64,000 nt of DNA from Phoronis australis (Eukaryota; Animalia; Phoronida), in the NCBI GenBank assembly GCA_002633005.1, contig NMRA01000013.1, positions 230,033 through 294,032 of the forward strand, given 5' to 3'. This document shows, one piece after another, positions 31,465-58,300 of this stretch. The notes under the pieces were generated by a model that was not told the origin of the DNA, did no database searches, and worked only from the letters and a program-made list of their open reading frames with translations. Each line of letters opens with the position of its first letter. The stretch's first letter is position 1. The position numbers were made by a program, and so were the translations under genes.

Positions 31465-31691
31465 ATGGAATTGATATTTATTATTGCTGTCCTCGCCGCT
31501 GGGATTTATACCCCGCTGTCGCGTGCGGCCGCACCCGTGATTCCCGGTGCTCAGACCGGAGTCTGTGACGTACTCCAGGACGGCACTTCTCTATGCCAGT
31601 GCGACACTAGCAGGACTAAAGTGCAGTGCAAAGACAAAAAACTAACTGCAGTGCCAGTTGCTGAAAAGTTCCCAGCCTCCACCAAGACATT
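31465..31691 (+). CDS. aGPCR coding exon 1: signal peptide and LRRNT cap
   Basis: aagATGG context; hydrophobic [34 protein letters not shown] pattern; donor TT|GTGAGT (phase 2). Confidence 0.9.
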
Positions 31692-34600
31692 GTGAGTATT
31701 TGGTTCAACTGTTTAGCTAATTCGATTTTTTTTACTGTTACATGCTGGTCGTGAACTTGGTGTTGCTTGCAGATTTTGTGAAACCAATTCTCCATTAATA
31801 ATTTGGAACGAGAGAGCCGCACTGGTTGATAAAATACATCACGTGAGCCAGATACATTCTTGAATCACGTACGGAGTTATGGCATAAATTTACATGGTGT
31901 CATTTTAATCGTTTAATAATGATAACGATATTTAAGAGCTTTGGATCAACTACACTCGCAAGTTAAAAGGTTTGCACTCGTGAATTTTGGTCACATCATT
32001 TTTATGCCTGGTCGTATATTGCCTTCGTCTCTGTTCAAAACCCTTGGGACCTCGTTATGAAAATTGACAGAAGTGTTCCTGTGAAGTTGACGACGGATGG
32101 CGACGACTTTCGGAAGAGCCCGACTATCACCGTTACTCTTTTTAAATAAATCTTAACAGTATTTTGCGTTTGCTTCTGTATCCTCGGAGTCCATTGGCGT
32201 TTTTTTGACATTTGTTGAAGCTGATATAGGATAACGACGAGTTTCAGACCAGGACCCCTTATGGTCAATTTTACATTTTTACACTCTCCTGTGTATCTCC
32301 AGAGGTCATTGATGGATATTTGTGAAATTGAGCAAATAAGTTTGTATTAAGGAGACGACTATGCTGTTCTCTTGTCGGGTGGACTTCACGTATTTTGAGA
32401 CGCTTAATGGCCATTTTTATGCGCCCACATATTTATATGTGGACGCATTATGCCGTCGTCTCTGTCCGTCCGTCCGGGCGGCGTCCGGCGTCCGGCGTCC
32501 GCTGCTCTATCTCCAAAACCCTTTGACATACGTTCATGAAATTTGGCACATATGTTCCATTCATGACTGGGACGGCATGTGCGAATTTTCGGACGGATCC
32601 GACTACCGGTGTGCCCCCTAGTGGCAATTTTAGTTTTTTACGCTTACCTTTGTATCTTCAAAAGTCCTGAACGGATTTTCATGAAATTTGGTATGTAGGC
32701 ACCTATTAGTGAGATGACGCTATCCTACTGTTTTCAGATGGATTCGACGTAGTTTGCGCCACCTAGTGGCCATTTTTACTGTTTTCGAGTCTGTATTTTT
32801 GCGTCCACCCCTCTATCAACCAAACCGCTCAAAGGATGATTGTGAAAATTGGCGTGTATGTGCTTACTATAAGGAAGACAGCTGACAATGATTTTCAGAC
32901 GATTTGGACTACTGTGGCGCCTCCTAGTGGCAGTTTTGTTTTTTTGCGCCCATGGCTGTATCTCCCAAACCGTTTGCAGGATCTTTACTAAATTTAGCAA
33001 GTGTATTTATGTGATGTTGACAACGGACGATGACGACTTTAGGATGATTCTGACTACCGGTATGCCTCTAGTGGCAATTTTAGTATTTGCCTCTAGTGGC
33101 AATTTTAGTATTTTACATTGACCTCTGTATTTTCATAGGTCTTCAGGTGTATACTTTGTGTTACTTCGTGACTATGAAGGAAAAGTTCCAAGTAGAAATT
33201 TGTTTCTGGCATTCTAATGCTGTGCTAATCTCGTATGTTGGTAAATTTGTTTTTAATTCTATGTTTCTGTGGTGCTTTAAGCAACTGGTGTATAGGATGT
33301 GCTTGTATTATGAAGATTACTCACATTTTGCCCCTAGCCTATTGAGGAGACAATGACCATGCCTTTCCATTTTGTTAAGTACAACATACTACATATATGC
33401 CCTCTACTGGCCCCTTTATGGTACCAATAAACAACCCTAGAAGGATACCGTATGCGGTGCAATTGTGGGCGCATTTCAACGCTCTGCGTTGCCCTTGTTA
33501 TAATTCGAGCTCGTGTTTGTAGCCAGCCTCTTTATTTGTCAAACTGCTTATACATGAACGATTGTTTTAAATCTTAGAGTGATATAAGTACCAATTTCAC
33601 AACAAAACACCAAAAACAACCCCATCAGTCGACCATTGAGCTATCAAATTAGAACAGTCGCAAACACTGTCTGACGAATTATGTTAATTAGGTGATCTCG
33701 AAGTACAATCATTTCCTGACAGAAACATATTACGTAAATTCAGGACAACCAATCACAGCCCCAGTCATCCTCAACAGTGTTTAGCGTGAAAAGTCGTCAG
33801 GCATTGCCACTAGTTTTCCCGTGGTTTATGGCATAGGAAGGAATGATGAGACGTTACGTTTGTTGTGATTGTGACAACTTAGTATTTGGTCGCGCACTGG
33901 CTCTTTTCACTTTCCCGCTGGACATCGCGAAGCGCGTATGTGGCACAAGTTTGCACAAGAAATTTGTGTAATATTGAATTTACGATTTTGATACGCAGTG
34001 CTATAAAAGAAGGTTTAATGATGCTGGCAATGTAGTCGCTTGTCAAACAAGGTAAATGGTAGTTTTAAGCACCTTTTGCAGATGTGTTCCCGATGAGAAG
34101 ACCGTGGCTTACGCTTATTTTTGGACGGGTCTTACTACTGTGGCACCTCCTAGTGGTGATATTTTCCTTTTTGCATAATCTTTGTGATATTTTGCGAGTG
34201 TGGTCCTATAAGTGTGACAACGGCTGCTCACGACTTTTGGACGACTCTGAATACCGCTGTGACCCCAAGTGACATTTTTAATTTGTGCGTTTACATCTGT
34301 ATCTTCAGAGTTCGTTGAAGATTTTTTTAGAAATTAGTGGCTGTTTTTGCTATTTTTGAATCATTTGCCTGTGTTTACTCAGTTGTTTAGAGGACCATTA
34401 CGGAAATTGGCGGATATATTCCTGCTGGTAAGAACACGACTGGCGTGGATTTTCAGACGGGTCCAACTGCTCTGATGTCCTCTAGTGATTTTTTGCTTCT
34501 GCGGCAGTCACTCCAAAACTCCTTGCAAAATCTTTTGGAATTCTGGAAAATGCATTCCTAGTAACGTCACAACAGATGCAAGGGTCGGACTACCGCTTCG

Positions 34601-55297: not shown

Positions 55298-55329
<32 letters not shown>

Positions 55330-58300
55330 ACAAAGCACATACACACAAAAACGCTATGCTACAAAATTTTGAGTAGATTTTTCGGAAGTTACATTAACAC
55401 ACCTGTTTAGTTAGTGGGGAAGAACACTTGGTCAAGATGATTACATTACGTCATTTACATGATACCAAGTGGCGTTTTTATTGGTTGAAAATTTGACGTA
55501 ACTCAAAGAAGCAGTCTATAAACCTTTAGCTGTGCTCATTTATGCGCGCACCCAGCCTTCAATATGGGGGGCGCGAATTCTTGACGTTGTGGACCTTTTG
55601 CTACAAACAAAAAACAAAAAACGGGAGCACCACTGTGAAGTGCGCGTTTGCGCTTACTTAGTGGACTTTTGTCCCATTTTCTCGGACTTTTTGTTTCTCA
55701 GGGGCGGACCTTTTTGCCCCCTTCGCCAAATGGCGGGGCTCGTTCGAGTCCCCCGAGCCCCCCCTTGGGTGCGCGCATGCATTTCATCATCAATACATGT
55801 AGGTGTGGTTTTATTTCATTAGTCTAATTTGACTTTCTTTCCATTTAGGTATACCTTTGTTGGCCGTAATAATCACAGTGTCCATTAACGTAGACAACTA
55901 CGGTTCATATAGCAACGATCCCGGAAGTAATCATGATCTGTAAGTCTACTATATAGAGATTATTACGTAACTTGGTGACAGTAGGCGGTCTGCCTTTCAA
56001 AGGGTTATCTCCAATTCAATACTTTCAGCACACTGTTTTTCAGTTACAGCGAATTGGACGCAGAGCATTGTAAACCAATAATCATGATATAGTGACAGTG
56101 TAAGTTCGCGAGCGGGGTTGAGATCCGTGGAAGGAAGCTGCTTGTAATACAGATCTTGCGTTTTCGCGAGATTCTCGCGTATACGTAGATGGAATATTTG
56201 AAGTCGTTATTGTGATAGCATTTATGGAAACCACGGAAGTCGATCAATCGATACATAATTTATGCCAAAAGCGGCCAGTATTTACATTTCATACCTTGTC
56301 AAAGAAAACTTCGTTAGTCACCGAATCTGGTTTCTTAAGAACGCTATATTTTAATACTACATACTAGCTACAACCTTGTGAAGTGATTTTAGAGTGAGTT
56401 TCTAGAAAAGTTTTGTTTTATGATTTGTGCGTAACTACAAAGTGATTACGTCAGATCAAGTGCTCTCCTTGGAAGTAGTGACAATACAGAGGCCAACAGT
56501 TCGGATACATCAACAGTAACCCTTGACCTACTTCTATCAAGTTTAATACCGGTACTGACAACCTTATCGCCAAAACTTTTCATGCTATTGTTTGTGATTT
56601 TTTCCAGGTGTTGGTTGAAAGACTTGGCATTTTACGGCGCCTTCCTCGCCCCAGTCGGCTTCATACTAATAATTAATTTCATCGCATTCGGCTTGGTCAT
56701 ACGACAATTAATGAAGTTGTCGAATGGGCGTGCACCTGGCCAGGCCGATCCTGGAGTCGCTGCCAGGCTAAGAGGCGCAATAAGTGTCATGGTGTTACTT
56801 GGTTAGTTGAAACATTCAATGCTTATTTAGTCAATTCTGTAGTGTAAATTGTATTGCGTTGAACACTGTTCTGTAAACAATTTCAATTTTGGTAGCGAAT
56901 GGAAAAGACTACTAGACGCGTTGAACCCTCACTTGACAAAATTTGAAGTATTCCTCTCGTTTCAGGCTTAACTTGGGTGTTTGCGCTTTTCGCCGTCGGT
57001 GACGCCGCTGTCGTTTTCAGCTACCTGTTTGCCATTTTCAATTCTCTCCAGGGATTCGCCTTGTTCGTCTTTTACTGTCTATTTAAAACTGACGTACAAC
57101 ACACGTGGATGAGGGCTTGCCCTTGCTGCCCGGACCCTGCATTAAGTCGATCCTCAAGTAAAGGTGAGTTGACGGGTTATTTGGTAATAGTCTCTCGGCT
57201 ACGCAAATATTTCGCTTTTGGATCCATTACTGGTGTCTTCTCTAATGAACACATTAGGCGGCCGTCCTCAGCAATCATTTTCACATTAAGAAATGGTATA
57301 CTTATTAAAGAAAAAATCATGTATCGCGCCTGTCAGTTACATGTGCACAAACGTAACATGTATATGCATAAGAAACCTCGACTTCTGTTTGCAGAAATGT
57401 TTAGGTATCAGTAGCTGTACAGTATCTGACATGAGTGATTGTTTGGTATAACATAATAATGTTCTCAGCGACGTGAATTAGTGAAGTCTGTAAACGTTAA
57501 ATAGGTGAAGCAGGTAATAAACACAGACTTGTGTACTTGTAGCGAAAGCGTCATAGATAATAGATATGTCTGAAACCAATACATGAGCACGTTAAAACCC
57601 CATCATCATTCCAGACAAGAAATGATGTCGTGGTGAAGTAATATACTGTCGTTTATTTAAAGAGAAACATATTTTATTCGCATGTAATGTAGATTTTGGT
57701 TGGTTTTAATGCTGCCAGAGCCGGGTGACCAAACCAGTGCAGGTAATTTCATTGGTTGTTTTTGTCAGGTGATTTAGCATGGGAGAAGTGATTGGTTATT
57801 GGCAGTCTCTTGCTTAGTTTGCAAATGGGGCATGCATTAATTGGTAAATGAAAACCAAAAAACGTCTTTCCGGACATTACATTGTTTAAAGAGGCCTGGA
57901 ACGCAACAAACAAACTAAATTGCAACTATATCGAAAGTGGTTCTCTGCCACTGAAACAATTCACCCTGCTCACCAGGTATTTTTGGGGTTTCTTCGTAAA
58001 CACTTTTAATTTCTGTTGATATGAAAGCATCTTTCTTTTAGTTTCAAATTTCAAAAAACGATCCGCCACTTCCTCGATTTTTCTCCCACAAGCCAGGCAA
58101 AGCACGTCTCCTTATTTTGGTATGTCAAGACATAGACATAGCTCGTTCCCCTAAAAAGGAAAATGTGACCTTTGACCGCAAGCGACTTCAAGCAAGTGGC
58201 TGTGAGCGCATGCGCGCATTTATCATAAGTGGGAGAGTGGTAACCATAGAGTTTTTCCTTCGTGCGTATTTCAAAAATCCTGAATTTTGCATTTTTTCTG

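What the first reader, a model, noticed from the sequence alone, without database searches (positions are those of the whole stretch)
31465..57163. Adhesion GPCR with a three-finger (Ly6/uPAR) domain built into an LRR ectodomain
Seen: in-frame exon chain SP-LRRNT-LRRs-LRRCT-[[23 protein letters not shown]]-HRM-GAIN-7TM. Known: ADGRA2/3 (GPR124/125) have LRR-Ig-HRM-GAIN, and Ly6/uPAR domains usually occur in small secreted or GPI-anchored modulators (Lynx1, LYPD6, Quiver, snake toxins). I know of no characterised aGPCR with one. Inference: this is an undescribed receptor architecture with a covalently tethered prototoxin-like module, which GPS cleavage could release with the N-terminal fragment.
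Basis: partly seen in the sequence, partly recalled or inferred. Interest (0 to 1): 0.85.

Follow-up and report, generated by a model that had tools for sequence, protein, structure and literature searches.

The report
Invertebrate adhesion receptor with three-finger domain
This is a real, spliced animal gene for a cell-surface adhesion receptor whose outer part carries a predicted three-finger (Ly6/Lynx2-type) domain behind leucine-rich repeats; the same layout occurs in many marine invertebrates and was already noted in starfish, so it is a new member of a known, still untested receptor type.

Summary
22 exons give one open frame of 987 aa: signal peptide, LRRs, a 12-cysteine domain, HRM, GAIN/GPS (HL|T) and 7TM. 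The domain is three-finger: the family profile hits LYPD1/LYPD6 (E 2e-10), and a homologue's model (pLDDT 89.6) matches Ly6/uPAR structures. It is not undescribed. LU-bearing adhesion GPCRs are in print for starfish (LyAr2/LyAp2) and, as LU-7TM receptors, for molluscs and arthropods (PMC9410279, PMC11595613, PMC13719153). This scan also noted them in two octopus windows. Here 54 of 74 invertebrate relatives carry the domain and 0 of 46 vertebrate ones do. The nearest vertebrate 7TMs found are ADGRG2/G4/G6; no vertebrate ADGRA2/3 appeared. What is added: annelid, brachiopod, nemertean and hemichordate members that the 2026 survey did not list, and an unrooted, species-like tree that favours one bilaterian origin. 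GPS cleavage would free the LU only inside a ~640-residue fragment. Function is untested.

The parts
31465..31691 (+). Exon 1: start codon, hydrophobic signal-peptide-like N-terminus, LRRNT
   Evidence: In-frame stop upstream; hydropathy; Pfam LRRNT E 0.0011, below cut-off; RNA loose ends join it to exon 2
35456..38058 (+). Exons 2-5 (35456-35527, 35912-35983, 37131-37211, 37987-38058): single-LRR exons, all phase 2
   Evidence: Splice joints in RNA, 14-18 reads each; frame
39147..39319 (+). Exon 6: LRRCT (CxC...C...C)
   Evidence: RNA joints; family LRRCT profile 35.1 bits; no Pfam hit
40271..40350 (+). Exon 7: first finger of the LU domain (C241, C244, C252, C258); starts in phase 1
   Evidence: RNA joints 8 and 4 reads; alignment to homologues
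40671..40905 (+). Exon 8: fingers II-III and the CCxxxxCN end of the LU domain; ends in phase 1 (exons 7+8 = 315 nt, an in-frame cassette)
   Evidence: RNA joints 4 and 12 reads; Pfam UPAR_LY6_2 E 0.0015, below cut-off
41394..43803 (+). Exons 9-10 (41394-41568, 43718-43803): hormone-receptor motif (HRM); no SEA domain between LU and HRM
   Evidence: RNA joints; Pfam HRM E 0.023; LU-to-HRM gap 16 aa against about 112-142 aa in most lophotrochozoan relatives
45399..47858 (+). Exons 11-15 (45399-45609, 45874-46021, 46443-46538, 47048-47182, 47724-47858): GAIN domain with GPS
   Evidence: Pfam GAIN-type hits on exon 11 (below cut-off) and GPS E 7e-17 on exon 15; RNA joints up to exon 12
47832..47840 (+). 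Predicted autoproteolysis site H658-L659|T660, followed by the Stachel-like TNFALLIDI
   Evidence: Sequence; HLT or HMT in 53 of the 55 LU-bearing proteins scored, window included
48256..57163 (+). Exons 16-21 (48256-48383, 48889-49006, 54056-54200, 55849-55939, 56608-56801, 56966-57163): seven-transmembrane domain
   Evidence: Pfam 7tm_2 on the 4 exons of these 6 that were scanned, 3 above cut-off; tblastn of relatives; junctions not shown by RNA
60559..60648 (+). Exon 22: part of the cytoplasmic tail (predicted)
   Evidence: Canonical ends and open frame; no RNA test
61400..61431 (+). Candidate last coding exon with stop codon (unconfirmed)
   Evidence: Only strong acceptor found downstream by a simple scan

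Best explanation
The gene encodes a spliced LRR-LU-HRM-GAIN-7TM adhesion GPCR of a widespread invertebrate family related to vertebrate ADGRG2/G4/G6, and it likely works as a self-cleaving, tethered-agonist receptor in which the LRRs and the three-finger domain together form the partner-binding head. Shown: exon chain to exon 12, inclusion of the LU exons in RNA, domain order, family membership, intact HL|T site. Predicted: three-finger fold of the six-disulfide Lynx2/LYPD6 type, from a homologue's model. Inferred by analogy with ADGRG6: cleavage at L659|T660; binding or pull on the head exposes the Stachel TNFALLIDI and activates the 7TM, probably through Gs/cAMP. Also inferred: the LU is a fast-evolving recognition surface whose partner differs between lineages, and it leaves the cell only inside the ~640-residue N-terminal fragment.
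For: RNA joints. Open frame and domain hits. LU at the same place behind an LRRCT in 45 of 74 invertebrate relatives, LU in 54 of 74, none in 46 vertebrate rows (one fish row moved to the vertebrate count). LU profile hits LYPD1 2e-10 and LYPD6 5e-9, and all 22 PDB hits are three-finger proteins. Model pLDDT 89.6; Foldseek top hit Lynx2 E 3.8e-5, TM 0.70; VIA top LYPD6B Z 9.8 (rmsd 3.1, 83 aligned), tied with GPIHBP1 and others, ranks 1-39 all three-finger folds. Two relatives and the window's exon 21 score best against ADGRG6/G2/G4 among PDB chains. Outside cysteines the LU is the least conserved domain, 17.5% mean identity against 24-30% for the other ectodomain parts and 54% for the 7TM. 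In amphioxus and nemertean paralogues the same slot holds a C-type lectin, a PAN-like domain or nothing, as expected of a swappable binding module. Stachel activation and Gs coupling of ADGRG6: PMC11475505, passages.
Against: No ligand, cleavage or signalling data exist for any member that I found. The window's own exon 8 alone folded poorly (pLDDT 45), so the fold is carried over from a homologue. The window's exon 20 alone matched only ADGRL4/L2, weakly. The tree has no outgroup, and the vertebrate branch is long. Low surface conservation fits a mere spacer equally well. Junctions downstream of exon 12 lack RNA support.
Confidence: 0.6

Rival explanations
1. The LU is a tethered Lynx2/LYPD6-type modulator: it binds a neighbouring receptor (nicotinic receptor, or LRP6 in Wnt signalling) on the same cell, or on another cell after the N-terminal fragment is shed.
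For: The subtype is the six-disulfide, loop-III-helix form of Lynx2/LYPD6 (PMC7582953 passages). The GPS is intact, so shedding is possible. PMC11595613 suggests LyAr2 acts like Lynx2 (a suggestion, not tested there).
Against: Surface residues are poorly conserved across the family, which is not expected if the target were a conserved receptor. The NxI motif (recalled as LYPD6's LRP6-binding motif) is absent from the window's domain and present in 4 of 55 domains. No furin consensus frees the LU from the large fragment. A shared fold does not show a shared target.
Confidence: 0.15
2. The LU is only a rigid, disulfide-locked spacer or hinge that positions the LRR head over the HRM-GAIN stalk (open or closed forms, as in ADGRG6), with no ligand of its own.
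For: Besides Cys, only a few positions are conserved. The slot can be empty in amphioxus paralogues. An in-frame 6-nt deletion and 3 amino-acid variants in exon 8 were seen in RNA reads. ADGRG6 is regulated by ectodomain shape (PMC11475505).
Against: Between close species the LU can be about as conserved as its neighbours (two starfish 81%, two abalones 76%). It has been kept in six phyla. Where it is replaced, the replacements are typical binding modules.
Confidence: 0.2
3. The LU was fused to adhesion GPCRs several times independently (one of two options offered in PMC13719153), so the window's receptor is a separate fusion and not part of one ancient family.
For: The LU sequences are very divergent; the window's LU is closest to echinoderm LUs while its 7TM groups with lophotrochozoans. 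No outgroup was available. Arthropod LU-7TM receptors were not among the 120 listed hits, so they may be separate.
Against: Same position (directly behind LRRCT), 12 Cys in 42 of 55 domains, one profile finds 22 non-seed domains, and the GPS-7TM tree splits lophotrochozoans from deuterostomes at 99/99 with class-level groups largely intact.
Confidence: 0.05

Closest known systems
Starfish LU-domain adhesion GPCRs LyAr2 (XP_033635706.1) and LyAp2 (XP_022094807.1); PMC9410279, PMC11595613
   Same: Signal peptide, one internal LU at about the same place (224-305 of 1113 aa in LyAr2; 239-326 here), 7TM, annotated ADGRG2-like, LU most like Lynx2/LYPD6. An Acanthaster ADGRG2-like hit (P0083) has LRR-LU-GPS-7TM.
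   Different: Different phylum. The passages I read do not mention the LRRs. That P0083 is LyAp2 is inferred; the accession look-up could not be made and the supplement gave no sequence match.
LU-7TM receptors of echinoderms, molluscs and arthropods (PMC13719153, 2026 survey)
   Same: [quoted passage not shown] 2 legend lists GPS and LRR among its domain labels (figure not seen).
   Different: Its Table 1 lists no 7TM type for annelids, brachiopods, nemerteans, hemichordates or bryozoans. I find family members in the first four; in the full-length proteins scanned the LU is missed or below Pfam cut-off.
Vertebrate ADGRG6 (GPR126), ADGRG2, ADGRG4
   Same: Nearest vertebrate GAIN-7TM found; HRM-GAIN-7TM stalk; intact GPS and similar Stachel.
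   Different: ADGRG6's head is CUB-PTX-SEA, not LRR-LU. No LU in 46 vertebrate rows and no profile match to 13 vertebrate ADGRG6 ectodomains. The window's protein has no SEA.
ADGRA2/ADGRA3 (GPR124/125)
   Different: LU in place of Ig. No vertebrate ADGRA among the 120 best 7TM hits of 1822.
LYPD1 (Lynx2), LYPD6, LYPD6B
   Same: 12-Cys LU with extra disulfides in loops I and III and a loop-III helix.
   Different: Those are small GPI-anchored proteins; here the domain is internal to a 7TM receptor, and no target is known.

Membership tests
Adhesion GPCR | Secretin-like 7TM (7tm_2) | tested here: met
Adhesion GPCR | GAIN domain with GPS directly before TM1 | tested here: met
   GPS E 7e-17; GAIN-type hits on exon 11 below cut-off
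Adhesion GPCR | Long modular N-terminus on the same transcript as the 7TM | tested here: met
   RNA joints exon 1 to exon 12; the rest by open frame and full-length homologues
Adhesion GPCR | Autoproteolysis and tethered-agonist signalling | not testable with these tools
   HL|T motif present; no biochemical test
Ly6/uPAR (LU) domain | Cys pattern with CxxC start and CCxxxxCN end | tested here: met
   12 Cys, all aligned with the family
Ly6/uPAR (LU) domain | Three-finger fold | tested here: met
   On the brittle-star homologue P0067 folded with a 43-row alignment; the window's whole domain was not folded, and exon 8 alone gave pLDDT 45
Ly6/uPAR (LU) domain | Reaches a curated Pfam LU cut-off | tested here: inconclusive
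   Exon 8 alone 19.1 bits against 31.5; homologue P0067 passes Toxin_TOLIP, 31.7 against 21.2
Lynx/prototoxin proteins | Small secreted or GPI-anchored single-LU protein | tested here: not met
   Domain is internal, spliced to LRRCT and HRM
Lynx/prototoxin proteins | Modulates nicotinic receptors | not testable with these tools
   No assay possible
ADGRA2/3 | Ig domain between LRRCT and HRM (recalled) | tested here: not met
   Slot holds the LU, with 16 aa left before HRM
ADGRA2/3 | 7TM groups with ADGRA | tested here: inconclusive
   No vertebrate ADGRA sequence was available for the tree; the vertebrate rows are G2/G6 plus two rows without a gene name
ADGRG2/4/6 group | GAIN-7TM closest to ADGRG2/4/6 | tested here: met
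   Owenia relative: ADGRG6 311 and G2 294 bits against L3 220, D1 198; window exon 21 best to G2/G6/G4; exon 20 alone did not agree
ADGRG2/4/6 group | Orthology by a rooted tree | tested here: inconclusive
   Vertebrate G2/G6 fall on the deuterostome side of a 99/99 split, but there is no outgroup
ADGRG6 | CUB-PTX-SEA head | tested here: not met
   Window has LRR-LU and no SEA
Starfish LyAr2/LyAp2-type LU-aGPCR | Signal peptide, one internal LU, adhesion-type 7TM | tested here: met
   starfish homologues among the hits

The most novel reading that the evidence does not exclude
LRR-LU(-SEA)-HRM-GAIN-7TM is the ancestral bilaterian form of the ADGRG2/G4/G6 receptors, from one origin; chordates lost or replaced the LU, and the retained LU is a functional Lynx2-type module that lets an adhesion GPCR directly modulate a second receptor (nicotinic or Wnt co-receptor) in cis or after shedding. 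The single-origin half is likely (about 0.65); the modulator half is speculative.
Probability: 0.1. Interest if true: 0.7.

Novelty: new member of a known kind. Interest (0 to 1): 0.3.

Why it matters
The architecture itself is in print, so this gene is not a discovery. It still matters a little. Automated annotation misses the LU in the full-length members scanned, so the family looks like plain LRR adhesion GPCRs in databases. The wider distribution found here bears on the open choice in the 2026 survey (independent origins or loss) and points to an invertebrate counterpart of ADGRG6/G2/G4, for which a review reports no orthologue in fly, worm, Ciona or amphioxus (PMC11475505, passage). The window's receptor lacks the SEA domain found in many lophotrochozoan relatives, which makes it a compact model for asking what an LU does inside an adhesion GPCR.

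Tried and rejected
No whole genome is held, so paralogues and synteny were not examined. Word search with exon 8 found nothing (weak search). The HMMER search of representatives with exon 8 gave 5 long proteins whose Pfam hits are bacterial Ig-like or unrelated repeats; they were rejected as chance. Atlas look-ups gave only leads under 0.9: three-finger clusters for exon 8 and LRR clusters for a Lingula stretch. Single-sequence fold of exon 8 failed. Profile comparison of the invertebrate post-LU (SEA-like) region with the vertebrate ADGRG6 SEA region gave probability 1.3%: inconclusive, so shared SEA ancestry is not claimed. A hidden SEA exon in intron 8 was rejected: longest stop-free stretch 46 codons, and RNA joins 40905 to 41394 directly. 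No paralogue elsewhere in the window. No RNA holder was listed by index; the runs came by species label. Cluster-member look-up could not be made. Supplements and figures of PMC13719153 could not be read; its Fig. 2 may already show LRR-LU-GPS-7TM. Literature searches for a description of the LRR+LU layout, a single origin or a function found only the three-finger-protein papers cited; the 2026 aGPCR review has no Ly6/uPAR/three-finger mention in the 300,000 of 412,554 characters held. No complex prediction was run.
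Full report
Observation. Reading 31000-64000 and testing exon ends in scripts gives 22 exons with canonical splice sites and one open frame of 987 aa. The order is: hydrophobic N-terminus, LRRNT, four single-LRR exons, LRRCT, a 12-Cys domain (residues 239-326), HRM, GAIN with GPS, seven hydrophobic segments, and a tail whose end is not fixed. Pfam on single exons supports GPS (E 7e-17) and 7tm_2 above cut-off, and LRRNT, UPAR_LY6_2, HRM and GAIN below cut-off (10 exon peptides scanned).

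Transcription. Three RNA runs with the same species label (one study) were laid on 35300-46100. All ten junctions from exon 2 to exon 12 appear as GT..AG joints on one strand. Those around the Cys-rich exons have 8, 4 and 12 reads, the others 13-18. No skipping joint was listed. Only about a fifth of each run was read, the listing needs 3 reads, and run X2 had none on the exon-7 junctions, so a minor skipped form stays possible. An earlier lay on 31000-49200 showed sense-strand depth over exons up to 17, but its joint table was filled by intronic repeats.

Relatives. A search with exon 20 found one protein, a gastropod ADGRG6-like receptor with LRR, a Cys-rich domain, a SEA-like domain, HRM, GPS and 7TM. 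Its GPS-7TM region found 1822 proteins, of which the best 120 were listed. Of these, 74 are invertebrate (5 unnamed rows placed by similarity) and 46 vertebrate (ADGRG6, ADGRG2, one fish row without a gene name and one unnamed CUB-PTX row). A profile from 32 Cys-rich domains finds the domain at 15 bits or more in 54 of the 74 (22 of them not seeds; three only at 17-20 bits) and in 0 of the 46; 45 have an LRRCT upstream of it. The 20 without it are 2 partial records, 7 amphioxus, 9 hemichordate and 2 nemertean rows. The window's domain, not in the profile, scores 31.0 bits against 4.7 for the best of 1000 shuffles. Members come from molluscs, annelids (Owenia, Ridgeia), a brachiopod (Lingula), nemerteans, echinoderms and hemichordates (phylum names from my knowledge of the genera). 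Many lophotrochozoan members carry a SEA-like domain in a gap of about 120 aa between LU and HRM; the window's protein has a 16-residue gap and no such domain.

Fold. The profile of 43 domains hits LYPD1/Lynx2 (E 2e-10), LYPD6 (5e-9) and LYPD6B (1e-5); all 22 PDB hits to E 1 are three-finger proteins. The brittle-star homologue P0067, the second-best pairwise match to the window's domain, folds at pLDDT 89.6. Foldseek ranks Lynx2 first; VIA-align gives LYPD6B Z 9.8 (rmsd 3.1, 83 aligned), tied with GPIHBP1, PSCA, Prod1 and Lynx1, and the first 39 rows are three-finger folds. Twelve cysteines and a loop-III helix match the six-disulfide Lynx2/LYPD6 type (PMC7582953, passages). The window's whole domain spans two exons and was not folded; exon 8 alone gave pLDDT 45.

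Placement. Against PDB sequences, relatives score best with ADGRG6 and ADGRG2, then G4, L3 and D1; the window's exon 21 agrees, while exon 20 gave only weak ADGRL hits. A maximum-likelihood tree of the GPS-7TM region (55 rows: the window plus 54 of the 120 hits, near-duplicate isoforms and 38 vertebrate rows left out) splits 28 lophotrochozoan rows from 27 deuterostome rows at 99/99. The window is on the lophotrochozoan side, next to Lingula at 87/86, which is not firm. Vertebrate G2/G6 are on the deuterostome side on a long branch. This species-like shape favours one bilaterian gene, but there is no outgroup and no ADGRA sequence, so orthology to ADGRG2/4/6 is likely, not shown. Against a simple picture, the window's LU is most like echinoderm LUs.

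What is in print. PMC9410279 (passages, supplement search) states that starfish LyAp2 and LyAr2 are parts of adhesion GPCRs. [quoted passage not shown] PMC13719153 (main text read, parts 1-3 of 4; figures and supplements not seen) reports LU-7TM receptors in echinoderms, molluscs and arthropods, none in annelids, brachiopods, nemerteans or hemichordates, and leaves open independent origin or loss; its Fig. 2 legend lists GPS and LRR. PMC6408891 (passages) describes an octopus adhesion-GPCR expansion with LRRs in 5 of 22 members and does not mention LU in the passages seen. PMC6900090 (passages) treats GPR64/112/126 as one group. Two earlier notes of this scan report the layout in octopus windows; they are unreviewed and are not counted as support. 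In the four full-length LU-bearing members scanned, and in the gastropod one, Pfam misses the LU or scores it below cut-off, which may explain the gaps in the survey.

Mechanism. The GPS reads HL|T, and HLT or HMT is kept in 53 of 55 LU-bearing proteins, followed by a Stachel-like peptide. By analogy with ADGRG6 (PMC11475505, passages) the receptor would self-cleave, hold its N-terminal fragment on the GAIN, and signal when binding or force on the head exposes the Stachel, probably through Gs. All of this is inference. The LU would be shed only in a fragment of about 640 residues; no furin consensus flanks it. Outside cysteines it is the least conserved domain (17.5% mean pairwise identity over 20 proteins), and paralogues put a C-type lectin, a PAN-like domain or nothing in the same slot. 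I read this as a lineage-tuned recognition module (0.6), ahead of a pure hinge (0.2), a tethered Lynx2-like modulator (0.15) and independent fusion (0.05).

Verdict. It is a new member of a known but untested kind; the added value is the wider distribution and the likely single origin near ADGRG2/4/6. Interest 0.3.

Noticed in passing
window 32400-33500 (intron 1): High-copy repeat with RNA depth above 1000 in all runs, from many diverged copies; probably a transcribed interspersed repeat.
   Followed up: no
window 38639-38752: Tandem repeat, 18-bp unit, 6.3 copies, 98% matches, in intron 5.
   Followed up: no
window 40734-40860: RNA reads differ from the assembly inside the LU: E281K, N302D, L323M and an in-frame 6-nt deletion near 40813 (4 of 6 reads in X3). 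Likely alleles; too few to test for selection.
   Followed up: partly
window 61590-61923: THAP-domain remnant downstream of the gene (Pfam THAP E 5.5e-8 on the first piece), split over two frames.
   Followed up: partly
window 31008-31194: Transcribed stretch upstream of the start codon, with reads in the same orientation as the receptor; 5' UTR or the end of an upstream gene.
   Followed up: no
P0045-P0048, P0053, P0056, P0057 (amphioxus); P0073 (Lineus): Relatives in which the slot between LRRCT and HRM holds a C-type lectin, nothing, or a weak PAN-like domain in place of the LU.
   Followed up: partly
P0041 (scallop, named plexin-B2-like): Record joins plexin domains to the back half of an LU and a GAIN-7TM; a real fusion or a merged gene model.
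   Followed up: no
window about 6340-6580: Run of N (assembly gap) seen in the six-frame translation.
   Followed up: no
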